From: Candidatus Saccharimonadota bacterium
Lineage (GTDB): Bacteria > Patescibacteriota > Microgenomatia > UBA1406 > GWC2-37-13
Direction: 5' to 3'
DNA: 32,000 bases
Assembly (NCBI GenBank): GCA_016432445.1
Contig: CP066689.1
Span: forward strand, 210,001 to 242,000
Within the stretch, counting starts at the first letter, position 1. Each line of letters starts with the position of its first letter. A program made the translations under genes and the position numbers. Shown piece by piece: positions 2,610 to 26,747 of the stretch. The notes under the pieces were generated by a model. The model was not told where the DNA came from. It searched no databases and worked only from the letters and a program-made list of their open reading frames with translations.

Positions 2610-4403
2610 ATGAAATTTAGCAAGCTGGCTCAAGTTTTTGAAAAGATTGAGAAAACAAGTTCGCGTTTAGCCATAACTCATTTATTGTCTGATTTATTTA
2701 CTAAACTTAATAATGTTGAGATTGAAAAAACAGCTTATCTTCTTCAAGGCAGAGTGGCGCCTCTTTATGAAACAACTGAGTTTAGAATAGCTGAAAAAAT
2801 GGTAATAAAAAGTATTCTTTTTGCCCTTAATTTGGATCGATCGTTATTCATAAAAGAGTATGAAAAAAAAGGAGATCTGGGAATAGCAGTGGAACATTTT
2901 AAAAATCAGTATCCATCTCTTGAGGAAAAAGATTTGGATATTACTCATGTTTATGAAGATCTAAAACGTTTAGCCCTAGCTGAAGGAGCAAAATCTCAGG
3001 AAATAAAGGTGGGAATTTTAGCTCATCTCATACGTCAACTTGATCCTTTATCGTGTCGTTTTTTAGTTAGAATTCCTTTGAGTATGCTGAGACTGGGATT
3101 TTCGGATATGACTGTGCTTGACGCTTATTCGTGGATGATGACGGGAGACAAAAGTTTAAGAAAGAAAATAGAAGATGTTTATCATGTCCGTCCGGATTTG
3201 GGACAGATTGGCAGATTGCTGAAAGAGAAAGGGATTATTACCTTAAGACATGTTAGCCCGCGAATATTTACTCCTGTTATTATGATGAGAGCAGAACGTT
3301 TATCATCTGGTGAGGAAATTATTGAAAAAATAGGCAGATGCTCTATTGAACCAAAATACGATGGCTTCAGGCTTCAGGCTCATTACTTAAAAAATAAAAA
3401 TGAGCTGCGTTTATTTTCACGAAATCTTGATGATGTTTCTTATATGTATCCTGATATAGTTGAAGGGATTAAAAAAGAAGTTAAATGTGAAGAAATTATT
3501 TTTGAAGGAGAAGCCGTTGGTTTTGATCCCAATACAGGTAATTTTTTACCGTTTCAGGAGACAGTTCAGCGTAAACGAAAATATGATATTGAAGAAAAAA
3601 TAAAAGAGATTCCTTTAAAGTTTTTTTCTTTTGAGCTTTTGTATCTGGATGGGGAAAGTTATATTAATGTACCTTTTCATCAAAGAAGAGAAAAATTGGA
3701 GAAAGCAGTAGATGGGAAAAAGGACGTCTACAAAGATACAGTCTTAATTGCTTCCAATACTGTAACTGATGATGCTAAAAAGATAGAACTTTTATTTGAT
3801 GAGATGGTTACTAAAGGGCTAGAAGGCATTGTTGCAAAAAAGCTTGATGGTGTGTATCAGGCTGGAGCCCGAGGATGGAACTGGATTAAGTTTAAGCGAA
3901 GCTATTCATCAAAGATTGAGGATACAATTGATTGTTTAGTTATGGGTTATGATTATGGACGTGGGAAGCGGGCAAAGTTTGGTATTGGTGCGTTTTTGGC
4001 TGGAGTGTATGATGAAAAAGAAGATAAATATGTAACCGTGGCTAAGATCGGGACGGGTCTTACTGATGAAGAGTGGAAAGATCTTAAAAAAAAGTGTGAT
4101 CGTTTTATTTCCTCAAGCAAGCCGGCTTTATACGAAGTAGATAAGGCTATGGCGCCTGATATTTGGGTTAAGCCTTTTTTGGTAACCGAGATTAAAGCTG
4201 ATGAAATTACTAGATCACCAGTTCATACAGCAGGTCGGCTAATGAAGTCATCCAAAAATGGCAAAGGACAAGAGGTAGAAAAAGCCGGACTGGCTCTTCG
4301 TTTCCCTCGTTTAGTACGTTTTCGCGATGATAAACGACCTGAAGATACAACTACTCTTAAAGAATTGGAGGAGATGTATAAAGCCGCCACCCACCATAAA
4401 TAA
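2610..4403 (+). CDS. ATP-dependent DNA ligase, three-domain archaeal/eukaryotic Lig1-like type
   Basis: Adenylation motif I EPKYDGFRLQAH (KxDGxR). Also FEGEAV, EGIVAKK and WIKFKR motifs. About 240 aa of N-terminal DNA-binding-domain-sized region. 597 aa. Confidence 0.85.
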   Translation: MKFSKLAQVFEKIEKTSSRLAITHLLSDLFTKLNNVEIEKTAYLLQGRVAPLYETTEFRIAEKMVIKSILFALNLDRSLFIKEYEKKGDLGIAVEHFKNQYPSLEEKDLDITHVYEDLKRLALAEGAKSQEIKVGILAHLIRQLDPLSCRFLVRIPLSMLRLGFSDMTVLDAYSWMMTGDKSLRKKIEDVYHVRPDLGQIGRLLKEKGIITLRHVSPRIFTPVIMMRAERLSSGEEIIEKIGRCSIEPKYDGFRLQAHYLKNKNELRLFSRNLDDVSYMYPDIVEGIKKEVKCEEIIFEGEAVGFDPNTGNFLPFQETVQRKRKYDIEEKIKEIPLKFFSFELLYLDGESYINVPFHQRREKLEKAVDGKKDVYKDTVLIASNTVTDDAKKIELLFDEMVTKGLEGIVAKKLDGVYQAGARGWNWIKFKRSYSSKIEDTIDCLVMGYDYGRGKRAKFGIGAFLAGVYDEKEDKYVTVAKIGTGLTDEEWKDLKKKCDRFISSSKPALYEVDKAMAPDIWVKPFLVTEIKADEITRSPVHTAGRLMKSSKNGKGQEVEKAGLALRFPRLVRFRDDKRPEDTTTLKELEEMYKAATHHK

Positions 4404-4467
4404 ATCCAAAATCCAAATGACAAATATCAAATTTTTGTTTGACATTTAGATTTTGAAATTTGGATTT
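4402..4467. repeat. Heptamer-register inverted array (unit AAATCCA family) between convergent genes
   Basis: Left arm AAATCCA AAATCCA AATGACA AATATCA, 10-nt spacer, right arm TGACATT TAGATTT TGAAATT TGGATTT. The outermost units are perfectly complementary. Confidence 0.8.
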
Positions 4468-4472
4468 TGTGT

Positions 4473-5150
4473 TTATTTGCTTGGGTGGATTTTGATGGTA
4501 TTGGCTGCTCTTAACGGATATTCTATAAAAAAAGATTGAGGTCTTTTTTTAATTCTTCTGGCTGACGTAGGCATAATTAATGATTTATCAAACATAATTA
4601 CACCTCCAGCTTTACCTATATGAAGAGCTAAATCCATATCCTCATGGACTTTTTTATCTTCAAGGCAGGTATTTTTTTTTACTTTATCCCAAATTTTTTT
4701 AGTAATCGCCATATTTGGTCCGATTAGGGTTCCTTTTCCTTTTTGAGCGATTCTGACAATGTCAGCATAAATTATACTACCTAAGATAGTGGGTAAAAAA
4801 AAATCATACATCTTTAAAGGGCCGGTAACTGCATCTATTTTGTATCTGGAAAAATCATTGATTATTTTTTTTATCCAATCAGAAGGCGGTATTGAGTCAG
4901 CGTCACAACGGGCAAGGATGTCGCCTTTAGCTTCGTCAAAACCTTTATTTCTAGCATAAGTTATTCCTTGCTTAAATTCTTTAAAGATAGTTGCATTAAA
5001 ATTTTGAGCGACATTAATAGTGTTATCTGTAGAGTTATTATCAACGATAATGATTTCTTCAGGTTTCTCTTCCTGGAGGTTTAAGGCTTCAAGGCATTTT
5101 TCAATATATTTTTCTTCGTTGTAAGCAGGTATGACGACAGATACTTTCAT
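4473..5150 (-). CDS. Family 2 glycosyltransferase
   Basis: VVIPAYNEEKYIEKCLEAL..IIIVDNNSTDNT..CDADS: GT-A fold N-terminus with a DxD-like motif. 225 aa. Confidence 0.8.
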   Translation of the reverse strand: MKVSVVIPAYNEEKYIEKCLEALNLQEEKPEEIIIVDNNSTDNTINVAQNFNATIFKEFKQGITYARNKGFDEAKGDILARCDADSIPPSDWIKKIINDFSRYKIDAVTGPLKMYDFFLPTILGSIIYADIVRIAQKGKGTLIGPNMAITKKIWDKVKKNTCLEDKKVHEDMDLALHIGKAGGVIMFDKSLIMPTSARRIKKRPQSFFIEYPLRAANTIKIHPSK

Positions 5151-7210: not shown

Positions 7211-9409
7211 TTATTGATCTATTTGATAGATGGCTCCTTGTTTATTACTGCTCACGAAAATTTTATCAGCAATTAAGTTAAATTTACTTTCATTTAGTTT
7301 GGGATACTTATTTCTTTCAAGAGTGGAAACAACAACATACTTGATTTGATATTTATTTATTAAATTCATAGTTGTTGCGATATCACTAGATTCATAAATA
7401 TTAACAATGTCAGGGATTCTCTTACCGACAACATCAGACGAACCTCTCCACAGCCACTCATGAACCCACCAGCCGGCAACTGTAGGCAAACCTGTATAGG
7501 CTGAGATCCTGGCATAATCTGTGTAGGAATCACCTTGAGCTTCAAGAATAATTGGTTGATTAGTAATATTAGTATTTAAATAATCAATGATTTCTTTGTC
7601 TTCAGGATAGCTGTTTTTAATCCATGTGGAGCCGTCAAGCTGCGGTTTCTTTTTTAATGAGCCGTAATAGGAAGAGAAAGCAAAAAATGGGTAAATAATT
7701 ATAAAAAAAAATAAGAAAAAATAAATGCTTTTTATAATAAAATTAAAAAAGTATTTCATAAAAGTAAGCCGGTATAAAGCATAAACGGAGGCAATGCTCA
7801 TAATCGTAAAAGCTTGATAGCCTAGTTTAAACATTGTATTTGCTCTAAAGTGAGCCGGATAAATATCTTTAATATAAAAAAACTCGGCAATCGTAATCAA
7901 AAAAGTTCCAAAAGCAAAAAATAAAAGCATTAATAAATCAATTTTATTTAGATTAAGAAGAGAGTGGATTTTTAAGCCTTTTCTTTCAAAATATTTTATG
8001 CTTCTTACGGCAATAATAAATGTCAAAATAGCCAGTGAAATCCAAAAAAATCCCCAGAGTACAAAAAGCATCCATGGGGCAGATACTTGGCAGTTACCTT
8101 TTTCAAAAAGAAAAGGACCCAATTTTTTAAGATTAACAAGGAAATCAGGACTGCAATTGACACCGATGCCGTTTACAAATGGAGAAAAGTTAAGAGAAAA
8201 AGGAAAAGAAAAAATAAGGAAAGAACTAAATAATATTATGCCATAAAACAATGACTGAAAAGATAACCTAAACATAATAAAAATAATAAAAACAGTAAGC
8301 AAAAGATAAATTGGGCCATCAAAAGCATTAGTCATATAATGAATGGCCGACATGAAGCCGATTGCAATAATATAAAAAAGGTTATGGGTTATGGGTGATG
8401 GGTTGTGAGTATTTTTAACTTTAAGAAAAAAACTAAAAAGCAAAGCTAAGGTTAATAAAACAAAAGGGATATCAAAAACATGGCCGTGGAGATCAGCTAC
8501 GACATAAGAATAGGCTGGAAATTCATGAATAGTAAATGGAATAAATCTGGTGGCGTTAGGATACCAGTACTTTGTTGGGTTATAGTTACTGATAATTTTC
8601 CAGAAAGGAATAGGATTTTCATTGGGATAACCGGTAGTGAAAAGATATATGGTATGTAAATTGCCGCTTAAGTTAACAACAAAACTTCCTAAAAAACCAA
8701 AAGCAATTAAAGGCAACTTTTTAATTTTATTAAATCCTAAAACATGTTGTTGAACAAAGGCTATACAGTTGCCAGCCAGTGAAAAAGCAAGAGTCATCCC
8801 TTGAGCAAATATAGTGGCTAGGATTAAATTGTAGGCTACAGTAGGCAATGTATTGGTTAATTTTATTAAAAAGGCTCCAGTTAAATGACCAAAGTAATAA
8901 TAGTTAATAAAATATCCTTGAGGTTTTTGAGGATCAGCCGATAACCACATATCCAAAGGAGGGAAATACTGAGATTTCACAATAGAGTTAATAAACCCAA
9001 AATCCATAAATTTCTCCAAACCCCGCACTGAAGGTTCTTGGCCGCGCACGTAAGTCAAAAACAGCAATGAAGCTATAAAAATAAGTTCTTCTAATATAAA
9101 AATGCCGATTTTTTCTTTATTAAACACATAAGATTTTTTAATCCATAAATAAACATTTACTACTGCAAATAATAGTAAAACCGTAATTAAAGTAAGCTGG
9201 GTAAAAGGAGCAATTTTGGTAAGGCCAAGGATAAATGCTGTGTAGCTTAAAAAAATAATTCCTAAAGTTTTGCTAAAGGCATAGCCCTCATCAAAAAAAT
9301 TAGGAAGGATGCTTCTTATCAGCGGAAAAAAAACTATTCCAATAACAAAAAGATATAAATACCATGTAAGTGTGGTTAAGATCCAGTCCATTTGTTTATT
9401 ATAATGCAT
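7211..9409 (-). CDS. Large polytopic membrane protein with YYY motif (DUF2298 / Chlor_Arch_YYY-like, putative GT-C-type glycosyltransferase)
   Basis: Many TM segments, the FINYYYFGH motif and a C-terminal soluble domain. The true start may be the second Met at 9391, because TATAAT (9398-9403, minus strand) lies 6 nt upstream of it. Confidence 0.65.
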   Translation of the reverse strand: MHYNKQMDWILTTLTWYLYLFVIGIVFFPLIRSILPNFFDEGYAFSKTLGIIFLSYTAFILGLTKIAPFTQLTLITVLLLFAVVNVYLWIKKSYVFNKEKIGIFILEELIFIASLLFLTYVRGQEPSVRGLEKFMDFGFINSIVKSQYFPPLDMWLSADPQKPQGYFINYYYFGHLTGAFLIKLTNTLPTVAYNLILATIFAQGMTLAFSLAGNCIAFVQQHVLGFNKIKKLPLIAFGFLGSFVVNLSGNLHTIYLFTTGYPNENPIPFWKIISNYNPTKYWYPNATRFIPFTIHEFPAYSYVVADLHGHVFDIPFVLLTLALLFSFFLKVKNTHNPSPITHNLFYIIAIGFMSAIHYMTNAFDGPIYLLLTVFIIFIMFRLSFQSLFYGIILFSSFLIFSFPFSLNFSPFVNGIGVNCSPDFLVNLKKLGPFLFEKGNCQVSAPWMLFVLWGFFWISLAILTFIIAVRSIKYFERKGLKIHSLLNLNKIDLLMLLFFAFGTFLITIAEFFYIKDIYPAHFRANTMFKLGYQAFTIMSIASVYALYRLTFMKYFFNFIIKSIYFFLFFFIIIYPFFAFSSYYGSLKKKPQLDGSTWIKNSYPEDKEIIDYLNTNITNQPIILEAQGDSYTDYARISAYTGLPTVAGWWVHEWLWRGSSDVVGKRIPDIVNIYESSDIATTMNLINKYQIKYVVVSTLERNKYPKLNESKFNLIADKIFVSSNKQGAIYQIDQ
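8381..8408. repeat. Tandem heptamers embedded in coding sequence
   Basis: GTTATGG GTTATGG GTGATGG GTTGTGA on the plus strand. Encodes THNPSPITHN in the minus-strand membrane protein. Confidence 0.7.
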
Positions 9410-9413
9410 TCGA

Positions 9414-9485
9414 TTTTAGATCTTTGATCTTGGATCTTAGATAATAAAATTCTAAGATCTAACATCTAAGACCTAAGATCTAAAG
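9414..9485. repeat. Heptamer-register inverted array (unit TCTAAGA family) between divergent gene starts
   Basis: TTTTAGA TCTTTGA TCTTGGA TCTTAGA, 9-nt spacer, TCTAAGA TCTAACA TCTAAGA CCTAAGA TCTAAAG. Confidence 0.8.
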
Positions 9486-9526: not shown

Positions 9527-11713
9527 ATGGAACCGAAGTTTATTCCGTCTCAAGTAGAAGAAAAAATATATAAGTTTTGGGAAGAAAAAGGCTATTTTAA
9601 AGCAAAAGTTGATAAAAACAAAAAGCCGTTCTCAATAATTCTTCCTCCTCCTAATGCTAATGCCGATCTTCATTTAGGACAGACAATGTATGTTTATGAA
9701 GATATTATGGTTCGTTATCACAAACTTTTGGGAGATGAGGTGTTATGGCTTCCTGGAGCAGATCATGCTGGTTTTGAAACGCAGTACGTTTTTGAAAAAC
9801 ATCTTCAAAAGCAAGGGAAAAGCCGTTTTGATTATGACAGGGACACTCTTTATAAAATGATCTGGGATTTTGTCATAAACAATAAAAGCAACATGGAAAA
9901 CCAACTTAAACGTTTAGGTTTTGCTCTTGATTGGTCAAAAGAAAAATTTACTCTGGACCCGGATATCGTCAAAATTGTTTATAAAACATTTAAAAAACTT
10001 TATGATGATGGGTTAGTTTATCGCTCAGAAAGGTTAGTTAACTACTGTACTAAATGTGGAACTGGATTTTCTGATCTGGAAGTAGTTCATGTTGAACGTA
10101 CCGATCCACTTTACTATATGAAGTATGGGTCATTTATTTTAGCTACAGTTCGGCCTGAAACCAAGTTTGGGGATACGGCTGTTGCTGTAAATCCAAAAGA
10201 TAAACGATATAAAAAATGGGTGGGTCAAGAGATTGAGGTAGAAGGGCTTATCGGAAAATTCCGCGTGAAAGTCATTGCTGATGAGGCTATTGATCCAAAG
10301 TTTGGGACAGGAGTTGCCAAGGTGACTCCGGCTCACGACATGACGGATTTTGAAATAGGTAAACGTCACGATTTGGAAATGAAACAGGTTATTGGATTTG
10401 ATGGAAAGCTTACTGCCATAGCCGGTCCATATGCTGGACTTAGAGTAAAAGCTGCCCGAGAGAAGGTAGTTGAAGATATGAAAAAAAAAGGCCTGATTGA
10501 TCATATTGATGAAAATTATACTCATACCGTTAGTACTTGCTATAAATGTAATACTACATTAGAACCATTGCCTATTCCTCAATGGTATGTGCGAATTCGT
10601 CCTTTAGCCGATAGAGCCATTAAAGAGATAAAAGCTAAAAAAATTTATTTTTTGCCAAAACGCTTTAAAAAAATGGCTATTCAATGGTTGACTAATTTCC
10701 ATGATTGGAATATTTCCCGTCAGGTTGTTTGGGGAATAAGAATTCCGGCGTGGCACTGCATAGATTGTGATCATGGCGGCATTCAAGAGTGGGTGATCAC
10801 CGATGGAGATAAACCAGAAAAATGCACTAAATGCCAAAGTACTCACTTGGAACAGGATATTGATACTTTTGATACTTGGTTTTCATCAGCCCAGTGGCCA
10901 TATGCCACTTTGCTTTCGCAAAGTGGAATTTCAAATTTCAAATTTCAAATTTCAAAAGAAAATTCAGAAAATGATTTTTTTAATTATTTTTATCCTACAT
11001 CTGTAATGGAGACAGGCTATGATATTTTACCTTGGTGGGTAGCCAGAATGATCATGATGGGTTATTACGTTATAGATAAGCCTCCTTTTAGGTTAGTTTT
11101 CCTTCATGGACTGGTACGGGATAAAAAAGGGCAAAAAATGAGCAAATCCAAAGGAAATGTAATCAATCCTATTGACATGGTTGACAAATATGGCGCCGAT
11201 GCCTTAAGAATGTCTCTTCTTTTTGGAGCAAAAGAGGGTAATGATATTTCAATGTCCGAGGAGAAAATTGTAGGTATGAGAAATTTTACCAACAAGATTT
11301 GGAATATCGGAAGGTTTATCCACTTGAATCAAATCCCAAATCCAAATGTCAAATTTCAAATGTCAAATACAATTTTGAAGGAATTGAAAAAAGAGTTTGA
11401 GGAGGAAAAGAAAGCTTATCTTAAAAATATGAAAAATTACCAATTTACTAAAGCTCTTGATTTAGTGTATGATTTTTTGTGGCACAGATTTGCTGATTAT
11501 TATATAGAACAATTGAAAGATGATCTAAGAACTGGTAAAATAGATGTTTTGGAAGTATTAAGATCTGTTTATAAAGAGAATTTAATAATGCTTCATCCTT
11601 TTGCTCCGTTTGTAACCGAAGCAGTTTGGAAGGTATTTGAAGGGGAAGAGAAATCAATATTAGATTCAAGATTCATGATTCAGGATTCAAGAGGTTTTAT
11701 TCATGAATCGTAA
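9527..11713 (+). CDS. valS: Valyl-tRNA synthetase (short form, no C-terminal coiled coil)
   Basis: Class I signature PPPNANADLHLGQ (HIGH-like), KMSKSKGN, the DTWFSS..YPTS..WWVARM core and a CP1/editing-sized insert. The N-terminus FIPSQVEEKIYKFWEEKGYF is typical of ValRS. Confidence 0.85.
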   Translation: MEPKFIPSQVEEKIYKFWEEKGYFKAKVDKNKKPFSIILPPPNANADLHLGQTMYVYEDIMVRYHKLLGDEVLWLPGADHAGFETQYVFEKHLQKQGKSRFDYDRDTLYKMIWDFVINNKSNMENQLKRLGFALDWSKEKFTLDPDIVKIVYKTFKKLYDDGLVYRSERLVNYCTKCGTGFSDLEVVHVERTDPLYYMKYGSFILATVRPETKFGDTAVAVNPKDKRYKKWVGQEIEVEGLIGKFRVKVIADEAIDPKFGTGVAKVTPAHDMTDFEIGKRHDLEMKQVIGFDGKLTAIAGPYAGLRVKAAREKVVEDMKKKGLIDHIDENYTHTVSTCYKCNTTLEPLPIPQWYVRIRPLADRAIKEIKAKKIYFLPKRFKKMAIQWLTNFHDWNISRQVVWGIRIPAWHCIDCDHGGIQEWVITDGDKPEKCTKCQSTHLEQDIDTFDTWFSSAQWPYATLLSQSGISNFKFQISKENSENDFFNYFYPTSVMETGYDILPWWVARMIMMGYYVIDKPPFRLVFLHGLVRDKKGQKMSKSKGNVINPIDMVDKYGADALRMSLLFGAKEGNDISMSEEKIVGMRNFTNKIWNIGRFIHLNQIPNPNVKFQMSNTILKELKKEFEEEKKAYLKNMKNYQFTKALDLVYDFLWHRFADYYIEQLKDDLRTGKIDVLEVLRSVYKENLIMLHPFAPFVTEAVWKVFEGEEKSILDSRFMIQDSRGFIHES
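10927..10954. repeat. (AATTTCA)x4 perfect tandem heptamer array inside valS
   Basis: Four exact copies read from the sequence. Translated as ISNFKFQISK in a loop longer than I recall for E. coli ValRS. Confidence 0.85.
11331..11365. repeat. Heptamer array inside valS matching the left arm of the AAATCCA-family hairpins
   Basis: AAATCCC AAATCCA AATGTCA AATTTCA AATGTCA. Encodes IPNPNVKFQMSN. Confidence 0.8.
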
Positions 11714-11726
11714 ATCATGAATCAAA
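11663..11726. repeat. Heptamer-register inverted array (unit GATTCAN) overlapping the valS stop
   Basis: GATTCAA GATTCAT GATTCAG GATTCAA, spacer, then TTCATGAATCGTAAATCATGAATC. An 11-bp perfect stem forms between GATTCATGATT and AATCATGAATC. Confidence 0.8.
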
Positions 11727-11896: not shown

Positions 11897-12685
11897 ATGA
11901 ATCCACTTGAACTAATTGGACGTTATATTTATGACCCATTTTTTTTCCATCCATTCATAAATCTTTTAGTAGCTTTTACTAAACTATTTTTAATAGTTAA
12001 AATACCATGGGCTTTTGGTTTTGCTATTGTTGCTTTAACTGCTTTAATCCGTCTTATTCTTCATCCTTTTTTTGATAAGCAGATACAAACAAGTAAAAAA
12101 ATGCATGATTTAAAACCCCATCTTGATGTTTTGTCCCAAAAACACAAAAAAGATCCTAAAAAGCTTCAGGCTGAACAGATGCGACTCTATAAAGAAGCAG
12201 GCATTAATCCAGCATCAGGATGTCTATTTGTTATTATCCAAATGCCTATTTTTATAGCTTTGTATCAAACATTGTCCCTTTTCTTGACGACAGGGAATAT
12301 TGAAAAAATAAATAAAGTTTTATATTTCCCTTTCTTAAAAATTCAGGCGCTTGATCCATCATTTTTTGTATTTAACTTAGGTGTAACACCAGCTCAATCA
12401 GGTCCTTGGTATTACTACCTTGTTCCTTTAATAACGGCTGTTCTTCAATATTATCAAACTGTAGTGACTATGCCTGCGCCCGCCAAGGTTGAAAACAAAG
12501 AAGGTGAAAAGAAAGTAGAAAATAAAGGTGGAGATTTCCAGCAGGCAATGCAAACTCAGATGAAGTATATTTTCCCGCTTATGATCGGATGGTTTTCTTA
12601 TACTTTGCCAGTGGGATTATCCTTATATTGGAACATCTTCTCCATCTTTAGTATAATTCAGTATAAGAGGGTTTATAAGAAATAA
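11897..12685 (+). CDS. yidC: Membrane protein insertase YidC/Oxa1 (short type)
   Basis: LTALIRLILHPF..QMRLYKEAGINPASGCL..IQMPIFIALY..LSLYW. Conserved position after rpmH. Confidence 0.85.
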   Translation: MNPLELIGRYIYDPFFFHPFINLLVAFTKLFLIVKIPWAFGFAIVALTALIRLILHPFFDKQIQTSKKMHDLKPHLDVLSQKHKKDPKKLQAEQMRLYKEAGINPASGCLFVIIQMPIFIALYQTLSLFLTTGNIEKINKVLYFPFLKIQALDPSFFVFNLGVTPAQSGPWYYYLVPLITAVLQYYQTVVTMPAPAKVENKEGEKKVENKGGDFQQAMQTQMKYIFPLMIGWFSYTLPVGLSLYWNIFSIFSIIQYKRVYKK

Positions 12686-12753
12686 ATCCAAAATCCAAAT
12701 TTCAAATTTCAAAACATTCATCATTTGACATTTGAGCTTTGATATTTGGATTT
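12684..12753. repeat. Heptamer-register inverted array (AAATCCA family), exactly ten 7-mers in one register
   Basis: AAATCCA AAATCCA AATTTCA AATTTCA AAACATT CATCATT TGACATT TGAGCTT TGATATT TGGATTT. Confidence 0.85.
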
Positions 12754-12773
12754 ATTAGTTAATAAATAATTTT

Positions 12774-13265: not shown

Positions 13266-13437
13266 GCTAATTTTTTTAATTCTTCTTTATCCGGCAGTGA
13301 TTTTGTTTGATCTATTTTATTATTTCCTTTACCGTTCTTCCTGTTTGCAATGCACTAATATCGGTGAATTTTTAAAAAACTCTTCTCTCTCGGTATTTCT
13401 CATCTCTCAAGCCATAAGAACATTTAAAAGATCTTAG
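13228..13437 (+). CDS. Doubtful small hydrophobic ORF
   Basis: 69-aa ORF that overlaps the jag 3' end by 38 nt. One hydrophobic stretch. Its stop lies inside the heptamer repeat. No other support. Confidence 0.15.
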   Translation: MNLNKMKTVWKNKLIFLILLYPAVILFDLFYYFLYRSSCLQCTNIGEFLKNSSLSVFLISQAIRTFKRS

Positions 13438-13511
13438 ATCTGAGATCTTAGATTTTCGATATTAATCTGTTTTGTTTCTAAGATCCAAGATCTAACATCT
13501 AAGATCTAAAT
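13428..13511. repeat. Heptamer-register inverted array (TCTAAGA family), twelve 7-mers in one register
   Basis: AAGATCT TAGATCT GAGATCT TAGATTT TCGATAT TAATCTG TTTTGTT TCTAAGA TCCAAGA TCTAACA TCTAAGA TCTAAAT. Shares the exact 18-mer AAGATCTAACATCTAAGA with 9414-9485. Confidence 0.85.
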
Positions 13512-13547: not shown

Positions 13548-16500
13548 ATGGTAAATACGCCTGTGGCCGAAAGATCAACAGCTGGGATAAGAGAAGGCGT
13601 GGTGGATATAAAAATCCCCCTGGCAGAAGTTTTGGGGCCAAAAAATGAAGCAGAATTGCTAAAGCTTTTGAAAAGTCTAGAAATAGAAGCAAAAAACGCT
13701 AAAGTTGCCGCCAAACAAGAACAAAATAAAAAAAATAATGTTATTTCAATTAATAAAGGAGAAGAAAATAAGGGAGATGAAAAAAGTCTTAAGTTAGTAG
13801 AAAGTTCAGTTAAGCAAATTATTATTGCCTGCAATAATAATCCCAATCTTATTCCATCAAATTTGTCCGAAGCTAATCGTCATATGCTTGGTAATTTGAT
13901 GTTTCGGTTAAGAAACGTAGATCAGATTAATCCATCAACTTCTCCTTACATTTATGAGATTATCCAAAAGGCCATGAATAATCAGGCCAATCCATTGGAG
14001 ATATTATCAAAAGATGATTTGAAGTTTTTAGCGGCAGCTGATGAATATCTTCATCGACAAATACAAGATGTCATGACTGCTGCGGCCAGCAGAGCCGGTA
14101 TTGATCAAAAGACAATAGACCATTTTAAAACTGAGACAGTGCCTCCTAAAGTAACTGTTGATTCAGTAATTAATAGTCGTTTCGAACAAGAAGAGGGTAG
14201 TGCCGAATGGCTTCAGCGTCAGGAAAGAGGGATAAGTGATTATTATGATCTAAAAGAACCAAAGGAGGTACGTCTGTTAACAGCATTGTATTCAAATGAA
14301 GGTTTTGGCAAGTATATAGCTGAGACTATTAGGCAAACCATCAGTGAAGTTGGTGAAGCAGATAGAGCTTTATTGGGTAGAACTGTTAGTAAAAAAATCG
14401 AAGAGGACATGGTGCTTCTTTTCAGTAAAGTTTTCCGTAAAGCTGATGAATCAATGCCTCACGAGTTTTGGGATGAGATCGTTAAAGAAGGTTTTTATTC
14501 TTCAATTGAGATGACTTTTCACAATATGAAAAATGAGATCATCAAAAGAGGCGAGTACATGGAAAAATTGATGGCAAATCTTAAATATAATAATCAGCCT
14601 TTACCGACAGAGTTAGATGATTTAACAAAAATAGATTTTTATAGACGTTTCTCAGTTGAAGAATATCAGCCTCAAGATATAAAACGGAAAGATGGTACGA
14701 TTAAAACAGATTATGTAAAAAGAGTAGTTCCTTCGCCTGGATTTCAAAAAAGCAAAGTAAACGAGTTCACAAGAGCGCTTCAGGTTCTTATAGATCAGGA
14801 AGCAGATTTTAGAAAATATGGTCATAATGTAAGAGCTTTATTTTATAAACCAGGAGGTGAGGGAGGCTTCTGGAACTCTTTAGCACAATATGCTAATGAA
14901 TTTCCAGCTGTAGATCTTGACTCAATGACTTTTTTGCCAGATAGTGATATTTTTATGAGTGCGGCTCGTCTTTATACAAAATATTTAGAGGAGGATTTCG
15001 CGGTAAAAGACTGGGTTCATGATGCCAATATGTTTGCTAATGGCTTTCAAAGTACTAGAACTACCATTGAAGAAAATATTTTAGCAACCTTAAAAAGACA
15101 GTATGGAAAAGATATTAAAACAGAAGAATGGAGATTAAGAAGAGCCATGAATATGGGTGTGGCTATAGCCCGGGGAATCTTGATGACTGAGCCTGAGATT
15201 GCCGCCTGGGCTCTTCCTAGCATGAAGCGGGCTAAAGGTATGGCTCCAACTTTCGTTAGCTATTATCTTAATGACAATACGGCTTTAAGCACTCTTAATC
15301 CTCTTCATCATTTTTTAAGATGGCAGGCAGACGTAATCTTACAGCATAATGTGGCTTTTTTCCCGGTTGACGGGCCGACACCCAAGTTTACTGAAAAAGC
15401 TGATCACACTAAGTTGTGGGACTTAGCAGAAAAATATAGAGAGACTTTTTATGACGGTGGAAATGTTCTTAGTAAGGAAACTTTAGGCCGTAGGATTTTT
15501 TTGGAGGTTCTGCCAAATTTTGGAAAGGTAGGCAGTATTTTTACCCGTGCCGGCTGGAGAAATGAGAATGCCATTGATGGTTGGCTTGTTCACGATGGTA
15601 ATAAAACGAAGTTAGATTATCTTAAGTCATGGAAATCTTTAGAAAACATTGGTTTTGAACCTTTGTACTCTTTTGCCACTGCTATTGATGATAATCTTAA
15701 GAGCGCTTTAACTAATCCGGAATCAATGCTGGATATGGAAGCTATTGAAAAAGGAGTGGAGGAGGAAATTACCAAAGGTAAATATCAAAGACGGGAAAAA
15801 GATCAAAAAATTGAGGAGGCAGTTGAAGCTAAAAAAAAGGAGATAACTGAAAAAATAGCGGAAAGAGAAAAAATTTTTAAATACATATTTAATAAATATA
15901 TCCTTGATCCTTCTCAAAGACATCTTGATACCTTAAATTTGGATGTTCCTGATCCAGCTTATGAAGCTGAGGTTGCCAAACAAAGGGTAATCGCCGAGCA
16001 AACAGTAGATGGAAAGATTAAACAAGGAGATCAGTTTGTTAAGGACGACCGTGAAAATGAGATTATTAAAGAAACATATAGTCGTATCCTTTATAAAGGA
16101 TTAGCTGGAGTATTACGTGACCGTATGCCTGCAAAATTTCTCAGGATAGACCGTGATCGTAACTCGGTTGATGGGGAAAGCCGTTGGAAAAAAGTAAGAA
16201 ATGCTTTAATAGGTAAGACTGGATGGCCGGCAAAAGGTGTTAACGCAATGCAAGAGATGGCTATTCCATATGATCAGGCTATGAAAGATTTAGCTTTGGT
16301 TGAAACTCAACTTAGAGTGCATACTTCAGAAAAAATGAAAAAACATCTAGAGCAATATACTAATAATCCTTTAAGTTATGAGTTACATAGCGCTAAAATT
16401 TATGATTACATTCTTGATGATCGAACGATTGAGGAAGTTTTAAATGAGAATCTAGGAGATGAAACTGAGATTACTGCTGCAGAGAAGACTGCCCGTATAA

Positions 16501-17399
16501 AACGTGCCAAAGATGTTTTAAGATTAACCAATGAATTATATTTACATAATGAAAATTTTAAAGAAGTTGAAGGAATAAAATTAAATGGTCAACCAGTTCA
16601 TAAAAGTTTTCTTGATACGTTTGCTGACCAGATGATGGATAAATCGAAACATTTTCCTTTTGCCTTAGCTACTGACGAAGTGGATACTTACTTTTTAGCT
16701 TATAGGGCAGCCGGTCCCAGCATTATAAGAAGAGCTTTGGGTGATACTTCGCAAGTTGAGCAAGTAGTGTTGAAAGAAACTATTAATTATCTTGGTCTTT
16801 TTTCAAACTTAGCAATTACACCAAGCGATGAAAATTTTCATAAATTAGGAGCTCCGCTTAAAAAAATTTGGGACACAATGAATAGTATTCATGGTACAGA
16901 AATAGCCAATGAGCTAGTACACCATTTAGCCGCTTTAGCTCCGGCTTACTTTAAAACAGATACAGACGCCCGTTTGCTTTGGATGAAACTGGCGAGAGTT
17001 GGGACATATAAGTCAGTAGCGGCCAAGATAGCCGGTAGAAAATTAGGGATTTGGGAATGGGATGTTGAAAAAGGCGATAAATGGGCAATGACTTTATCAG
17101 ATTTAGGGATTCAGCCAAAAGAACCTTATCAGAGTGGTAAAGCTCCTTATAAAAAAGAAGATGTTAAAATACGTATTCCTTTTACTAACAGGAAAATTAA
17201 GATAGGCGAAAAAAAAACTCTTCGAAAACCGGATTTTAAATACTCAATTAAGAAGTTTAGAGAAGATTTTGGTGCAACAGGAAAACATATTGCTGCAGAA
17301 CTATTTATGAAGTGGGGTCCGATATTAATTTTTTTCCTGTTGTATCAGTTTATTACTAAGGCGTTTAAAGAGGCAACCGGTGAGGGTCAAAAAGGATAA
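13548..17399 (+). CDS. 1283-aa hypothetical protein with a single C-terminal TM helix (orphan)
   Basis: Long uninterrupted ORF with a charged coiled-coil-like stretch (EAIEKGVEEEITKGKYQRREKDQKIEEAVEAKKKEITEKIAEREK) and a C-terminal WGPILIFFLLYQFIT helix. I found no Walker A and no catalytic motif. Confidence 0.7.
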   Translation: MVNTPVAERSTAGIREGVVDIKIPLAEVLGPKNEAELLKLLKSLEIEAKNAKVAAKQEQNKKNNVISINKGEENKGDEKSLKLVESSVKQIIIACNNNPNLIPSNLSEANRHMLGNLMFRLRNVDQINPSTSPYIYEIIQKAMNNQANPLEILSKDDLKFLAAADEYLHRQIQDVMTAAASRAGIDQKTIDHFKTETVPPKVTVDSVINSRFEQEEGSAEWLQRQERGISDYYDLKEPKEVRLLTALYSNEGFGKYIAETIRQTISEVGEADRALLGRTVSKKIEEDMVLLFSKVFRKADESMPHEFWDEIVKEGFYSSIEMTFHNMKNEIIKRGEYMEKLMANLKYNNQPLPTELDDLTKIDFYRRFSVEEYQPQDIKRKDGTIKTDYVKRVVPSPGFQKSKVNEFTRALQVLIDQEADFRKYGHNVRALFYKPGGEGGFWNSLAQYANEFPAVDLDSMTFLPDSDIFMSAARLYTKYLEEDFAVKDWVHDANMFANGFQSTRTTIEENILATLKRQYGKDIKTEEWRLRRAMNMGVAIARGILMTEPEIAAWALPSMKRAKGMAPTFVSYYLNDNTALSTLNPLHHFLRWQADVILQHNVAFFPVDGPTPKFTEKADHTKLWDLAEKYRETFYDGGNVLSKETLGRRIFLEVLPNFGKVGSIFTRAGWRNENAIDGWLVHDGNKTKLDYLKSWKSLENIGFEPLYSFATAIDDNLKSALTNPESMLDMEAIEKGVEEEITKGKYQRREKDQKIEEAVEAKKKEITEKIAEREKIFKYIFNKYILDPSQRHLDTLNLDVPDPAYEAEVAKQRVIAEQTVDGKIKQGDQFVKDDRENEIIKETYSRILYKGLAGVLRDRMPAKFLRIDRDRNSVDGESRWKKVRNALIGKTGWPAKGVNAMQEMAIPYDQAMKDLALVETQLRVHTSEKMKKHLEQYTNNPLSYELHSAKIYDYILDDRTIEEVLNENLGDETEITAAEKTARIKRAKDVLRLTNELYLHNENFKEVEGIKLNGQPVHKSFLDTFADQMMDKSKHFPFALATDEVDTYFLAYRAAGPSIIRRALGDTSQVEQVVLKETINYLGLFSNLAITPSDENFHKLGAPLKKIWDTMNSIHGTEIANELVHHLAALAPAYFKTDTDARLLWMKLARVGTYKSVAAKIAGRKLGIWEWDVEKGDKWAMTLSDLGIQPKEPYQSGKAPYKKEDVKIRIPFTNRKIKIGEKKTLRKPDFKYSIKKFREDFGATGKHIAAELFMKWGPILIFFLLYQFITKAFKEATGEGQKG

Positions 17400-17439
17400 G
17401 ATTGAATTTGAGTAAAGATTAGGTTATTCTAAAGATAGA

Positions 17440-18216
17440 ATGAAAAAAATTATTTTCCTTTGCCTCTTCTTATTATTAACAGCTTCTTTTTTAATTTTCT
17501 CTCCAAGCAAAATATATGCCTTGGGTTTGTCTAATAATGCAGCAGAGAATATGTCAGGAATAAGCTGCGGTATTCCTGATTCATCTATTAACAGATGTTG
17601 TGCTCCTTTGTCATTTAAAGTTGATCTTAGTTTTGATAATAAATTTTTAGATGTTCCTTTAACTATATTTCGAGCCCCTCTTGAGTTTTTAGGCAATGGA
17701 ATTGTTATGGGGTTAATTGATATTTACGGTAAGGTTGAGAGATCAATAACAAAGACTAATGGATGCATTAAAGGTATCCCAAGTACAGAGAATCCGGCTG
17801 ATCCAAACTGTATTTGTAGCGATGCTAATTCCTCATCTTTAAAATCCATTTCTTATTTATGTGAGAAAATAGTTTCTCCAGATGAGAAAAAGCAGTGTAA
17901 AGCCTGTATTATTGGCGGTACTGCCAATACAAAAGCAGGTATCTGGACAGCAATAGGTTGTGTTCGGGGTGACTTAAGTTCATTTATTCAAGACACTGTG
18001 CTTAGCTGGGGTTTAAGATTGGCCGGTTTAATTGCTCTGCTTTGTATTATTTATTCGGCTTTTAGACTACAGGTTTCAAGGGGTAACCCTGAGGCTATTA
18101 AAAAAGCTCAGGAAATGCTTACTTCCTGCATAATGGGATTACTGCTTATTATCTTTTCAGTTTTTATATTAAGAATAATCGGAGTTGATATCTTAAGAAT
18201 CCCGGGTTTCGGTTAA
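17440..18216 (+). CDS. Secreted Cys-rich domain fused to a VirB2/TrbC-like two-TM pilin module
   Basis: Signal peptide MKKIIFLCLFLLLTASFLIFSPSKIYA. About 10 Cys in residues 40-175. The C-terminus is TM, SRGNPEAIKKAQ, TM, matching the pilin-like paralogs. Confidence 0.65.
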   Translation: MKKIIFLCLFLLLTASFLIFSPSKIYALGLSNNAAENMSGISCGIPDSSINRCCAPLSFKVDLSFDNKFLDVPLTIFRAPLEFLGNGIVMGLIDIYGKVERSITKTNGCIKGIPSTENPADPNCICSDANSSSLKSISYLCEKIVSPDEKKQCKACIIGGTANTKAGIWTAIGCVRGDLSSFIQDTVLSWGLRLAGLIALLCIIYSAFRLQVSRGNPEAIKKAQEMLTSCIMGLLLIIFSVFILRIIGVDILRIPGFG

Positions 18217-18239
18217 TAGGAATTGACTTACTCAGATTT

Positions 18240-18283
18240 AGGATTAGGATGTATTCTTTTGAGGATGAGGATGTATTCCTTTG
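18240..18283. repeat. 22-nt tandem duplication straddling the stop codon of the VirB6-like gene
   Basis: AGGATTAGGATGTATTCTTTTG / AGGATGAGGATGTATTCCTTTG (2 mismatches). Confidence 0.7.
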
Positions 18284-19959: not shown

Positions 19960-20003
19960 AATGCAAGGGAAGAAAATGCTGTAAATGGTACAATTATTTT
20001 AGA

Positions 20004-20783
20004 ATGAATATCTTAAAAAGATTTTTAATCTTATCTTTTTTTATTATTTTTCTTTTTTGGGGTTTTCTATCGTCAACTTATGCCGAAAATGATAATTCTT
20101 CATCAGGTTCAACAATAAAAGAGTTTCTTAAAATCTTTTTTCCTTCTTCCTCAGGTTTTCAAAATAACATCTCTCAGTTATCAGCTGATTCTCCAAATAA
20201 CAATCAATTACAACCTCAAGAGGCAATCTCTGTTAAGAGTTTAAGGGAACTTTTCTCAGAAATTGAAAAAAAAGTTCAGATACCGGCAAGAATCATTGAA
20301 GGAGTCATGCTAGTTGAGTCGCCAGGTTTACTTAATCCAGAGTCACCTAATTTTTTAACTGATGAGCAAGTGCAGGAATATTCCCGACCTGGTGCAGTAA
20401 TTCCTGGGTGCCGCGCTAATGCCTGCTCAGCCATGGGGCCAATGCAGATGACAACAGGGATTGACAACAGCGGTTCAAGCAGCTGTTCAGACTGCGGTCT
20501 AAACGTATGTCCTAATGCTTGGGCAGGTTTTGGAGACAGTGTTAATACTTTTGGTGGCTACTCTCATTTATCTAATCCTTGCAATCTTCGCGATAACATC
20601 TATGCAGCCGCGGCTAAACTGAAAGATAATAGCGGTGCCGGCTCAGGAGTGTGGACAAAAGAACAGGTTTACCGTGCCGCTGAAAGATATTATGGTTCAT
20701 GCAGTGATAAATACCGTTATGAACGGTTGGATAACAAAACATATTGCGAGTTTTTGTGGTGGTATTATACCGGCCAGGATTAA
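20004..20783 (+). CDS. Secreted lytic transglycosylase-like (SLT/VirB1-like) Cys-rich protein
   Basis: Signal peptide MNILKRFLILSFFIIFLFWGFLSSTYA. SLT-like motifs VMLVES (Glu-Ser) and AMGPMQMT (GxMQ), then IYAAAAKL and AAERYYG. The ATG at 20004 is preferred over 19938. Extended -10 TGgTACAAT at 19986-19994. Confidence 0.55.
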   Translation: MNILKRFLILSFFIIFLFWGFLSSTYAENDNSSSGSTIKEFLKIFFPSSSGFQNNISQLSADSPNNNQLQPQEAISVKSLRELFSEIEKKVQIPARIIEGVMLVESPGLLNPESPNFLTDEQVQEYSRPGAVIPGCRANACSAMGPMQMTTGIDNSGSSSCSDCGLNVCPNAWAGFGDSVNTFGGYSHLSNPCNLRDNIYAAAAKLKDNSGAGSGVWTKEQVYRAAERYYGSCSDKYRYERLDNKTYCEFLWWYYTGQD

Positions 20784-20786
20784 TTT

Positions 20787-23791: not shown

Positions 23792-23797
23792 GTTTTT

Positions 23798-26743: not shown

Positions 26744-26747
26744 AAAT

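What the first reader, a model, noticed from the sequence alone, without database searches (positions are those of the whole stretch)
10927..11365. Single arms of the heptamer repeats are embedded in frame inside valS
Two arrays lie inside the ValRS ORF: (AATTTCA)x4 at 10927-10954, and AAATCCC AAATCCA AATGTCA AATTTCA AATGTCA at 11331-11365. They are translated as ISNFKFQISK and IPNPNVKFQMSN.

The second array is nearly the same string as the left arm of the intergenic hairpins at 4402 and 12684. Both insertions fall in segments that are variable loops in my recollection of E. coli ValRS: after DTWFSS and before YPTS, and after the NKIWN helix.

The last 15 or so codons of valS (LDSRFMIQDSRGFIHES) are themselves the translation of the GATTCAN array at 11663-11726. 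So the repeat-generating process also acts inside an essential gene and is tolerated there as peptide insertions. Arrays in coding sequence lack the complementary arm.
Basis: seen in the sequence. Interest (0 to 1): 0.6.

Follow-up and report, generated by a model that had tools for sequence, protein, structure and literature searches.

The report
Heptamer DNA repeats translated inside valS
An essential gene (valyl-tRNA synthetase) of a Candidatus Roizmanbacteria genome carries short runs of a 7-base DNA repeat, the same repeat that builds hairpins between its genes. They are read through as loop and tail peptides, and the same thing recurs across this bacterial group in many housekeeping genes.

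Summary
valS (9527-11713) contains (AATTTCA)x4.3 at 10927-10956 and a degenerate heptamer array at 11331-11368. Its last 16 codons are the left arm of a hairpin at 11663-11724.

Period-7 arrays are specific to this period: 9 in the window against 0.03 expected, and none at periods 4-6 or 8. They are also specific to this clade: 82 in 734 kb of Microgenomates-like loci against 5 in 606 kb of outgroups.

The site-3 array matches two intergenic hairpin arms at 23/24 bases. Orthologs carry period-7 DNA with different units at the same three hot spots and at the C-terminus. Most orthologs have none there.

The coding arrays do not fold. They are stop-free in all three sense frames, while their reverse complement is closed in all three. 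That explains why only single arms survive in genes.

Site 3 is a normal-length linker whose sequence has been overwritten.

The same 24-base arm lies in frame, in all three frames, in MetRS, ArgRS, TrmD, LepA, LigA and UvrC in metagenomes.

Best reading: a DNA-level repeat family filtered by selection. How it spreads is unresolved. Novelty: new variant of a known kind.

The parts
9527..11713 (+). valS, valyl-tRNA synthetase, 728 aa. This is a short form that ends near Thermus ValRS residue 703 of 862.
   Evidence: ORF list; translation; Pfam tRNA-synt_1 and Anticodon_1; 100% identical to an NCBI Roizmanbacteria ValRS; aligned to 1GAX.
10927..10956 (+). Site-2 array, (AATTTCA)x4.3, perfect copies. 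It is translated as (G)ISNFKFQISK, residues 467-477.
   Evidence: No hairpin (z=-0.75). Open in 3/3 sense frames and 0/3 on the reverse complement. pLDDT below 50 at residues 469-479, coil. Absent from Thermus ValRS.
10913..10972 (+). Site-2 loop between ATL and FYPTS. It is 25 aa here against a modal 10-11 aa, a net gain of about 15 aa. The junction CAAAGTG and the decayed units after the array probably belong to the insert.
   Evidence: Length distribution in 120 orthologs. The same 5' junction TCGCAAAG(T/C)GGAA occurs in L004, L049 and L083.
11331..11368 (+). Site-3 array AAATCCC AAATCCA AATGTCA AATTTCA AATGTCA AAT, translated as QIPNPNVKFQMSN, residues 602-614. It occupies the linker between the helix after KMSKS and the anticodon-binding bundle, with no net length gain.
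   Evidence: Matches the hairpin arms at 4402 and 12684 at 23/24 bases. No hairpin (z=+0.60). Open in 3/3 sense frames and 0/3 on the reverse complement. Coil at residues 601-614, pLDDT below 50 at 609-612. Length 18 aa against a modal 19-22 aa.
11663..11692 (+). Left arm (GATTCAN)x4 of the hairpin at the valS 3' end. It is translated as DSRFMIQDSR. The first codons, DSRF, align with the native C-terminus of orthologs.
   Evidence: Orthologs end in DSRL, DSKL or NLKF.
11701..11724 (+). Right arm of the valS 3' hairpin. It contains the valS stop codon TAA at 11711-11713.
   Evidence: Inverted repeat I13, 87% complementary. Hairpin 11670-11723, -23.8 kcal/mol, z=-5.7. The right arm is closed in all three frames.
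4398..4478 (.). Intergenic hairpin between the convergent DNA ligase and glycosyltransferase genes. The arms are CAAATNN/CAAAATC-type heptamers. Its first unit, AAATAA, supplies the ligase stop codon.
   Evidence: Fold -25.3 kcal/mol, z=-4.6. Pattern match. Neighbouring genes.
12676..12761 (.). Intergenic hairpin after yidC, with left arm AAATCCA AAATCCA AATTTCA AATTTCA. AAATAA supplies the yidC stop codon.
   Evidence: Fold -22.8 kcal/mol, z=-5.6..
9409..9484 (.). Hairpin of AGATCT-core heptamers between the divergent DUF2298 gene and valS.
   Evidence: Fold -29.2 kcal/mol, z=-5.6.
13429..13507 (.). Hairpin of AGATCT-core heptamers upstream of the 1283-aa ORF. It belongs to the same family as the hairpin at 9409.
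   Evidence: Fold z=-4.5. A 26-base string is shared with 9409/9450.
8376..8410 (-). A further in-frame heptamer array, sense CCCATAA/CCCATCA, translated as THNPSPITHN. It lies in the DUF2298 membrane-protein gene, at the same loop where orthologs in L003 and L037 carry other arrays.

Best explanation
The valS arrays are copies of a clade-wide, DNA-level repeat class. This class consists of runs of 4-6 degenerate 7-base units.

Between genes, the runs occur as two inverted arrays that form long imperfect hairpins. Inside genes they persist only as unpaired arrays. I propose that arrays arise and change through two DNA-level processes:
- slipped-strand gain and loss of units, which would explain the four perfect AATTTCA copies;
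- copying of array sequence between sites of the same genome, which would explain why site 3 carries the same ordered string as the hairpin arms at 4402 and 12684.

Selection then acts as a filter. Within a coding sequence an array survives only if four conditions hold:
- its units have no stop codon in any frame;
- it lies in that stop-free orientation on the sense strand;
- the net length change is a multiple of three;
- it falls in a surface loop, a linker or the C-terminus.

A complementary arm cannot survive in a gene because it is closed in all three frames. At a gene's 3' end the left arm is simply read through until a stop in the loop or right arm, which produces the valS tail.

The encoded peptides (ISNFKFQISK, IPNPNVKFQMSN, MIQDSRGFIHES) are by-products with no required function.

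Shown: the arrays, their family relationship, the filter, and the recurrence across species and genes. Inferred: slippage, copying between sites, and the neutrality of the peptides.
For: Specificity to period 7 and to this clade:
- 9 arrays in the window against 0.03 expected.
- 82 arrays in 734 kb of Microgenomates-like loci against 5 in 606 kb of outgroups. Other periods give 9 or fewer.

Family link between coding arrays and hairpin arms:
- The 24-base string is found at 4402, 11331 and 12684, with 0 expected.
- Composite strings of 26-40 bases are shared between loci and between genomes.
- Units are more alike within a genome than between genomes: 21% against 11% of pairs differ by one base or less, permutation p about 0.008.

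The filter:
- The site-2 and site-3 arrays are open in 3/3 sense frames and 0/3 on the reverse complement.
- Of 52 coding arrays, the reverse complement has 0 open frames in 24 and 1 open frame in 20.
- Intergenic arms mostly have 0-1 open frames.
- Array density is 0.79 per 10 kb in coding sequence against 3.81 per 10 kb in non-coding sequence (p=6e-10).
- A partner arm is present for 9/52 coding arrays against 15/30 non-coding arrays (p=0.0025).
- In an independent metagenome sample, a partner arm is present for 0/15 in-ORF arms against 20/51 outside ORFs (p=0.003).

Loops:
- pLDDT is below 50 at residues 469-479, 609-612 and 721-728, all coil.
- Site 2 is absent from Thermus ValRS.

Turnover:
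- Orthologs carry different units at the same hot spots.
- At least 19, 21 and 10 state changes are needed on the ortholog tree.
- In the one cluster of at least 90% identity examined that has internal indels, two of the three indel blocks lie at sites 1 and 3 and the third just before the C-terminus.

The nucleotide string, not the peptide, is the conserved unit:
- The same arm is read as KSKIQ, NPKSK or IQNPN in MetRS, ArgRS, ValRS, TrmD, LepA, LigA and UvrC.

Slippage:
- A known excess of heptanucleotide repeats in bacteria has been attributed to polymerase slippage (Mrazek 2007, as summarised in PMC4679880; see also PMC4692102).
Against: - No copy-number polymorphism was observed. The metagenome search for this locus found nothing, and a 10-member cluster with arrays at all three sites showed no array length variation.
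- Slippage by one unit would frameshift an essential gene, so expansion inside valS must be rare or occur in steps of 3 units.
- The mechanism of copying between sites is not identified.
- Conservation of 30-40-base composite strings between species whose ValRS is only 50-65% identical is more than neutral decay predicts. It hints at either mobility or function.
- Nearly all Roizmanbacteria orthologs have heptad-like peptides at site 3, so that array is long-lived as a class.
Confidence: 0.6

Rival explanations
1. The arrays are remnants of mobile hairpin elements, comparable to MITE/REP elements or to Rickettsia palindromic elements. A complete heptamer-arm hairpin is inserted by a dedicated enzyme into intergenic DNA and sometimes into genes. 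In genes, only copies that lose the stop-containing arm survive.
For: - The same ordered 24-base string occurs at three sites in the window and in at least 120 metagenome contigs.
- Strings of 30-40 bases are shared between different genomes and genes.
- In L004, L049 and L084 the site-2 insert has the full arm order, AAATCC units followed by AAATTTC units, as in the intergenic arm at 12684.
- In L081 against L082, a long hairpin is nested within an outer stem that both share.
- In-frame insertion of palindromic elements into housekeeping genes is known for RPEs (PMC10969869).
Against: - No transposase, RAYT or reverse transcriptase is present in the 32-kb window.
- No terminal inverted repeats or target-site duplications were seen. 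The elements have no fixed length or consensus, and arm units differ from copy to copy and between the two arms of one hairpin.
- Three different unit families coexist.
- The tail arrays are continuous with native codons: DSRF = GATTCAAGATTC here, and NSEL = AATTCAGAATTA in L014.
- Four perfect tandem units point to local expansion.
- No remnant of a second arm lies next to either coding array.
Confidence: 0.2
2. Each array is born independently in place. Chance 7-base self-similarity in local sequence is expanded by slippage, and inverted arms are made by template switching. The shared vocabulary is convergence, imposed by AT-rich composition plus stop avoidance.
For: - The tail units match local native codons in the window and in L014.
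- Units differ between sites and between species.
- In an AT-rich genome, stop-free units must end each T run with C, which gives TCAAA-like cores (reasoning).
- There is a known bacterial excess of heptamer repeats.
Against: - Convergence does not readily explain identical ordered composites of different units at three sites in one genome.
- It does not readily explain the near-identical 31-32-base strings at sites 1 and 3 of one gene in L011.
- It does not readily explain the greater similarity of units within a genome than between genomes.
Confidence: 0.12
3. The arrays are kept because they are useful. One possibility is that the K/N/S/Q-rich loops aid ValRS, which here lacks the C-terminal coiled-coil that contacts tRNA. 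Another is that the RNA or DNA heptamers are binding sites for a clade-specific factor, even inside genes.
For: - The arrays recur at the same three sites and in the same loops of DNA ligase and DUF2298 across species.
- Site 3 is heptad-like in most Roizmanbacteria orthologs.
- Composite strings are conserved between species.
- Three of the five hairpins overlap a stop codon.
Against: - 91/120 orthologs have no site-2 insert and 59/120 have the minimal tail.
- Units and peptides change completely between relatives.
- The same arm is read in all three frames in different proteins.
- The segments are predicted to be low-confidence coil.
- Arrays are about five times rarer per base in coding sequence.
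Confidence: 0.1
4. The arrays are a chance pattern or an assembly error.
For: The sequence is a metagenome-assembled genome and its reads were not available.
Against: - The excess at period 7 is large and specific to that period.
- The ORF is intact.
- The arrays are shorter than a read.
- Independent assemblies of many species show the same features at the same sites.
Confidence: 0.02

Closest known systems
Heptanucleotide simple sequence repeats in bacteria (Mrazek 2007 survey; cyanobacterial STRR in Calothrix/Nostoc; GGGAATC in Xanthomonas; TAACTGA in Beggiatoaceae)
   Same: Both are tandem 7-base units in short runs of 2 to about 6 copies. Both are dispersed over the genome, enriched in intergenic DNA next to gene ends, and specific to particular genomes or clades. 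Polymerase slippage is the proposed generator (PMC4692102; PMC4679880).
   Different: The known cases are described as direct repeats of essentially one unit, under-represented in ORFs. Here the units are degenerate and A/T-rich, and they are commonly paired as inverted arrays forming 60-90-base hairpins. About 60% of arrays (52 of 82) lie in frame inside conserved genes, including aminoacyl-tRNA synthetases. The host is a Candidate Phyla Radiation lineage with a genome of about 1 Mb, not a large genome.
Rickettsia palindromic elements (RPE)
   Same: Both are palindromic repeat DNA inserted in frame into unrelated housekeeping genes, at positions compatible with the protein fold, and also present between genes (PMC10969869).
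   Different: RPEs are defined elements of about 100-150 bp with a family consensus, and the whole element is translated in one conserved frame. Here the inserts are 30-45 bases with no fixed consensus. Only one arm is ever found in genes, and the same string is read in all three frames.
Tandem repeats of Borg elements that create disordered regions in proteins
   Same: Both are A-rich tandem repeats that arise rapidly, occur in both intergenic DNA and ORFs, and add low-complexity, probably disordered segments. Homologous proteins tend to carry repeats at the same place (PMC9879509).
   Different: In Borgs, all repeat units within ORFs have lengths divisible by three, giving perfect amino-acid repeats. 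Here the unit is 7 bases, so frame is kept only by the total length, and the peptide period is 7 aa per 3 units.
REP/BIME elements mobilised by RAYT transposases
   Same: Both are imperfect palindromes that are abundant just downstream of genes.
   Different: No conserved REP-type head sequence was seen here. No RAYT gene was found in the window. REP elements are extragenic by definition.
Coding palindromes in Nematomorpha mitochondrial genes
   Same: Both involve inverted-repeat DNA overlapping protein-coding sequence (PMC6649704, listed).
   Different: In Nematomorpha, both arms are translated. Here the second arm is excluded from coding sequence by stop codons.

Membership tests
Heptanucleotide simple sequence repeat (long-unit microsatellite) | Head-to-tail copies of a 7-base unit, at least 3 copies | tested here: met
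   Tandem Repeats Finder gives 4.3, 3.7 and 4.4 copies at 10927, 11343 and 11662.
Heptanucleotide simple sequence repeat (long-unit microsatellite) | Excess over chance that is specific to the unit length | tested here: met
   9 arrays against 0.03 expected at period 7 and none at neighbouring periods. 82 arrays against 9 or fewer for other periods across 734 kb.
Heptanucleotide simple sequence repeat (long-unit microsatellite) | Copy-number polymorphism between strains or reads | tested here: inconclusive
   No metagenome contig matched this locus. In one cluster of at least 90% identity, two of three indel blocks map to sites 1 and 3 and the third lies just before the C-terminus. Another cluster with arrays at all three sites shows no array length variation. 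Reads were not available.
Rickettsia-palindromic-element-like / MITE | In-frame presence in conserved genes at structurally permissive sites | tested here: met
   ValRS loops. Also DNA ligase, DUF2298, RuvC, TsaD, UppS, MetRS, ArgRS, TrmD, LepA, LigA and UvrC.
Rickettsia-palindromic-element-like / MITE | A defined element with a family consensus over its whole length, terminal inverted repeats and target-site duplication | tested here: not met
   Copies share only 24-40 bases. The two arms of one hairpin differ in their variable positions. No flanking duplications were evident in the aligned copies. This was not examined exhaustively.
Rickettsia-palindromic-element-like / MITE | The element encodes one conserved peptide, read in one frame | tested here: not met
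   The same 24-base arm is read as KSKIQ, NPKSK or IQNPN in different genes.
REP/BIME with RAYT | An associated Y1 (RAYT) transposase gene and a conserved REP head motif | not testable with these tools
   None of the ORFs of the 32-kb window that were scanned hits a transposase family. The rest of the 1.1-Mb genome could not be read.
Borg-type amino-acid tandem repeats | Repeat units inside ORFs have lengths divisible by three | tested here: not met
   The unit is 7 bases. The Borg rule is quoted from PMC9879509.
Intrinsic (Rho-independent) terminator | A G+C-rich stem followed by a T run | tested here: not met
   None of the five heptamer hairpins appears in the terminator scan. Their stems are A/T-rich and have no T tail.
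Phase-variable contingency locus | A repeat tract that switches a dispensable, usually surface, gene on and off by frameshifting | tested here: not met
   The host genes are housekeeping genes, and the arrays sit in mid-gene loops or at the C-terminus. Essentiality of valS rests on general knowledge. A second valS copy in this genome was not excluded.
Known RNA families (Rfam) | A match to a curated covariance model | tested here: not met
   Only one tRNA in the whole window reaches a gathering score.

The most novel reading that the evidence does not exclude
Roizmanbacteria and related Microgenomates possess an active, sequence-templated copy-and-paste process, with an enzyme still unknown. 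This process writes ordered heptamer arms throughout the genome, including into essential genes. It thereby acts as a clade-wide generator and rewriter of surface loops and C-terminal tails in housekeeping proteins, and the same arms double as intergenic hairpins with a role at gene ends.
Probability: 0.25. Interest if true: 0.8.

Novelty: new variant of a known kind. Interest (0 to 1): 0.6.

Why it matters
Repeat units that are not a multiple of three are expected to be purged from essential genes. Here they are tolerated and recur at the same loops of ValRS, other aminoacyl-tRNA synthetases, DNA ligases, RuvC, TsaD and LepA across a whole Candidate Phyla Radiation lineage.

This has four consequences.
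- It gives a simple rule for which repeat DNA can enter genes: units that are stop-free in all frames, one orientation only, and never the complementary arm.
- It offers a natural map of insertion-tolerant sites in core enzymes.
- It explains part of the odd low-complexity K/N/S/Q-rich segments and variable lengths of proteins in these genomes, which affect annotation, alignment and phylogeny.
- If the arrays are spread by a dedicated mechanism, that mechanism is undescribed.

Tried and rejected
- An exact look-up of the window's ValRS in the contig index found nothing. The genome beyond the window therefore could not be read, and a whole-genome census and transposase search were impossible.
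- A metagenome scan for the site-2 array with both flanks and a variable gap gave 0 hits, so copy-number heterogeneity remains untested.
- A viral-contig scan for the 17-base arm core gave 45 hits. By my own rough estimate this is near background for an A-rich 17-mer. It was not followed up.
- Rfam found no family for the hairpins. The terminator and promoter scan did not pick them up.
- I hoped that L081 against L082 would show array replacement in an otherwise identical background. The genes are mosaics, and the site-3 region lies in a segment of 80-85% identity. The comparison shows faster change than the flanks but is not a clean replacement event.
- I looked for a decayed second arm next to the two coding arrays. 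The downstream sequence is native conserved coding sequence, and folding is no better than for shuffles.
- Literature searches for heptamer repeats in Candidate Phyla Radiation, Patescibacteria or Roizmanbacteria found nothing relevant.
Full report
**What is there**

The window comes from a Candidatus Roizmanbacteria genome (Candidate Phyla Radiation, Microgenomates). The ORF 9527-11713 is 100% identical to an NCBI valine-tRNA ligase on a 1.10-Mb contig, and it carries the class-I synthetase and anticodon-binding domains.

- (AATTTCA)x4.3 with 100% matches at 10927-10956.
- AAATCCC AAATCCA AATGTCA AATTTCA AATGTCA AAT at 11331-11368.
- (GATTCAN)x4 at 11663-11692, followed by its inverted copy at 11701-11724.

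They are translated as ISNFKFQISK, IPNPNVKFQMSN and DSRFMIQDSRGFIHES*.

**More than chance**

Segments with at least 17/21 self-matches at lag 7 number 9 after merging, against 0.03 in shuffles. There are none at periods 4-6, 8, 10 and 11.

Five hairpins in the window have arms made of heptamers. They lie at 4398-4478, 9409-9484, 11670-11723, 12676-12761 and 13429-13507, and they fold with z-scores of -4.5 to -5.7. The two arrays inside valS do not fold better than shuffles, with z = -0.75 and +0.60.

The string AAATCCAAAATCCAAATNNCAAAT occurs at 4402 and 12684, both hairpin left arms, and with one mismatch at 11331 in valS site 3. None is expected. The link between the site-3 array and the hairpin arms is therefore a shared ordered series of different units, not just a shared unit.

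**Are they insertions?**

I aligned 120 orthologs of 62-71% identity.

| Segment | Window | Modal length in orthologs |
|---|---|---|
| Site 2 (between ATL and FYPTS) | 25 aa | 10-11 aa (9-11 aa in 91/120) |
| C-terminus after SIL | 16 aa | 4 aa (59/120) |
| Site 3 (linker after NIGRFI.LN) | 18 aa | 19-22 aa |

Thermus ValRS (1GAX) has a gap opposite the site-2 array and a linker of similar length at site 3. So site 2 (+15 aa) and the tail (+12 aa) are length gains. Site 3 is a native linker whose sequence has been overwritten by an array.

In an AlphaFold model (mean pLDDT 73), the three segments are coil with pLDDT below 50 at residues 469-479, 609-612 and 721-728. Site 3 lies between helices 578-600 and 615-636.

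**Orthologs**

That test is not met.

I examined 44 Microgenomates-like valS loci from species-representative genomes and four further loci. The inserts there are also period-7 DNA, at the same places, but with other units:
- Site 1 (after IPAW.C): (AAAGTCA)x4 in L009, (AAAATCA)x4 in L010, and (GAAATCC)2(GAAATTC)2 in L084.
- Site 2: L004, L049 and L084 have AAATCC-type units followed by AAATTTC-type units, which is the order of the intergenic arm at 12684. L083 has a decayed AATTTCN array. L004, L049 and L083 share the window's 5' junction TCGCAAAG(T/C)GGAA.
- Site 3: L003, L009, L011, L015 and L019.
- C-terminus: L014 and L019.

On a neighbour-joining tree of the 120 orthologs, presence or absence needs at least 19 changes at site 2, 21 at site 1 and 10 for the tail.

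In the one cluster of at least 90% identity that has internal indels, two of the three indel blocks lie at sites 1 and 3 and the third just before the C-terminus.

The peptide MSNVKCQMSN, encoded by (AATGTCA)n, appears at site 1 in several orthologs and at site 2 in another. These are recurrent, fast-changing hot spots, not one lineage-specific event.

**Why only single arms in genes**

Because 7 is not a multiple of 3, three or more tandem units present every cyclic trinucleotide in every frame. An array in a gene must therefore be stop-free in all frames.
- The site-2 and site-3 arrays are open in 3/3 sense frames. Their reverse complements are closed in 3/3.
- The intergenic arms (AGATCTN, TCTAAGA, TTTGACA and similar) mostly have 0-1 open frames.
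- Among 52 coding arrays in the Microgenomates-like loci, the reverse complement has 0 open frames in 24 and one in 20. The sense strand is A-rich in 42.
- Arrays are 4.8 times denser outside coding sequence (p=6e-10). A complementary partner is present for 15/30 non-coding arrays against 9/52 coding arrays (p=0.0025).
- An independent sample gave the same result. The 24-base arm was found in at least 120 metagenome contigs. Of 71 distinct instances, 15 lie inside ORFs of at least 150 aa and none has a downstream complementary arm. Outside long ORFs, 20 of 51 do (p=0.003).

At the valS 3' end the left arm is read through, and the stop codon TAA at 11711-11713 lies in the right arm. The hairpins at 4398 and 12676 begin with AAATAA, which provides the stop codons of the DNA ligase and yidC genes.

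**Generality**

Period-7 arrays number 82 in 734 kb of Microgenomates-like loci and 5 in 606 kb of outgroup loci fetched with the same query. Other periods give 9 or fewer.

Coding hosts include:
- ATP-dependent DNA ligase, at the same loop in L003, L012, L015 and L037. The window's own ligase has an ordinary sequence there.
- The DUF2298 membrane protein, at the same loop in the window (8376-8410), L003 and L037.
- RuvC, TsaD, UppS, the YidC tail and a Wzy-like protein.

In metagenomes, the very same 24-base arm lies in frame in MetRS, ArgRS, another ValRS, TrmD, LepA, LigA and UvrC. It is read in all three frames, as KSKIQ, NPKSK or IQNPN. The conserved entity is therefore the nucleotide string, and the peptide is a by-product.

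**Mechanism**

I consider the following shown:
- A clade-specific class of heptamer arrays exists.
- The class is shared between hairpin arms and coding inserts.
- Stop codons, orientation and protein structure filter which arrays persist in genes.

How arrays arise and spread is inferred.

Points in favour of slippage:
- The four perfect AATTTCA units.
- The known bacterial excess of heptanucleotide repeats, attributed to polymerase slippage.
- Tail arrays that continue native codons: DSRF = GATTCAAGATTC here, and NSEL = AATTCAGAATTA in L014.

Points in favour of copying between sites, or mobility:
- Identical ordered composites at unlinked sites of one genome.
- Near-identical 31-32-base strings at sites 1 and 3 of one gene in L011.
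- Strings of 30-40 bases shared between genomes.
- Greater similarity of units within a genome than between genomes.
- In the near-identical pair L081/L082, a 90-base heptamer hairpin nested inside an outer stem that both share.

No transposase was found in the window, but the rest of the genome could not be examined. I therefore commit to a DNA-level repeat family, spread by slippage plus copying and filtered by selection, at about 0.6. A dedicated mobile element is about 0.2. Purely local birth is about 0.12. A selected function is about 0.1.

**Comparison with what is known**

- Heptanucleotide repeats of cyanobacteria, Xanthomonas and Beggiatoaceae share the unit length, dispersal and position near gene ends. 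They are direct repeats of essentially one unit and are depleted in ORFs.
- Rickettsia palindromic elements share in-frame residence in housekeeping genes. They are defined elements of about 100-150 bp read in one frame.
- Borg repeats share the creation of low-complexity protein segments, but their units in ORFs are always divisible by three.
- I found no paper describing heptamer arrays or heptamer-arm hairpins in Candidate Phyla Radiation genomes. That library is not exhaustive.

I rate this a new variant of a known kind, with interest 0.6.

Noticed in passing
window 8376-8410 (- strand gene 7211-9409): Another in-frame heptamer array (sense CCCATAA/CCCATCA, peptide THNPSPITHN) lies in the DUF2298 membrane-protein gene. 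Orthologs in L003 (8950) and L037 (8982) carry different arrays at the same loop.
   Followed up: partly
window 4398-4403 and 12680-12685: Both CAAAT-type hairpins start with the identical AAATAAATCCAAAATCCAAAT. The TAA in it is the stop codon of the upstream gene (DNA ligase, yidC). Three of the five hairpins in the window overlap a stop codon.
   Followed up: partly
window 9409-9484 and 13429-13507: These two hairpins use units with a palindromic 6-base core plus one base (AGATCT+N), so a single tandem array is self-complementary. GAATTC-core units play the same role in L009, L014, L018, L020 and L027. The hairpin at 9409 lies between divergent genes, so it is not at a gene 3' end.
   Followed up: no
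L081 2459-2567 versus L082 3437-3483 (valS-rpmH spacer): Two valS genes of 93.5% nucleotide identity differ in the spacer. L081 has a 90-base ACGAATN-type hairpin (-37 kcal/mol, z=-6.9), nested within the same 9-bp outer stem that in L082 encloses only 19 bases.
   Followed up: partly
L178 about 8900-9200: A metagenome contig holds a run of more than 250 bases of AAATTCC/AAAATCC units, far longer than any array seen elsewhere.
   Followed up: no
window 9527-11713: This ValRS and its Roizmanbacteria relatives (687-773 aa) end near Thermus ValRS residue 703 of 862. They therefore lack the C-terminal coiled-coil domain of canonical bacterial ValRS.
   Followed up: no
L012-L022, L026-L033 (valS site 1); L040, L055: At hot spot 1, other Microgenomates carry a conserved, non-repetitive insert of about 60-70 aa (...IWLSFIDKKG...GLQQ...). 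L040 and L055 carry an even larger one, so this site also accepts whole domains.
   Followed up: no
window 407-781, 788-1147, 17440-18213, 27833-28177: Four small proteins match the type IV secretion system pilin family (PF18895). A 1283-aa ORF at 13548-17399 has no Pfam match.
   Followed up: no
L015 valS C-terminus; P0007, P0092 site 3: Some orthologs carry other recurring peptides at the hot spots (SFPRKRESRS; DSGQARMTL). These look like translations of a different repeat family, not heptamers.
   Followed up: no
window 14000-32000: All heptamer hairpins and arrays in the window lie between 4.4 and 13.5 kb. None was detected in the remaining 18 kb.
   Followed up: no
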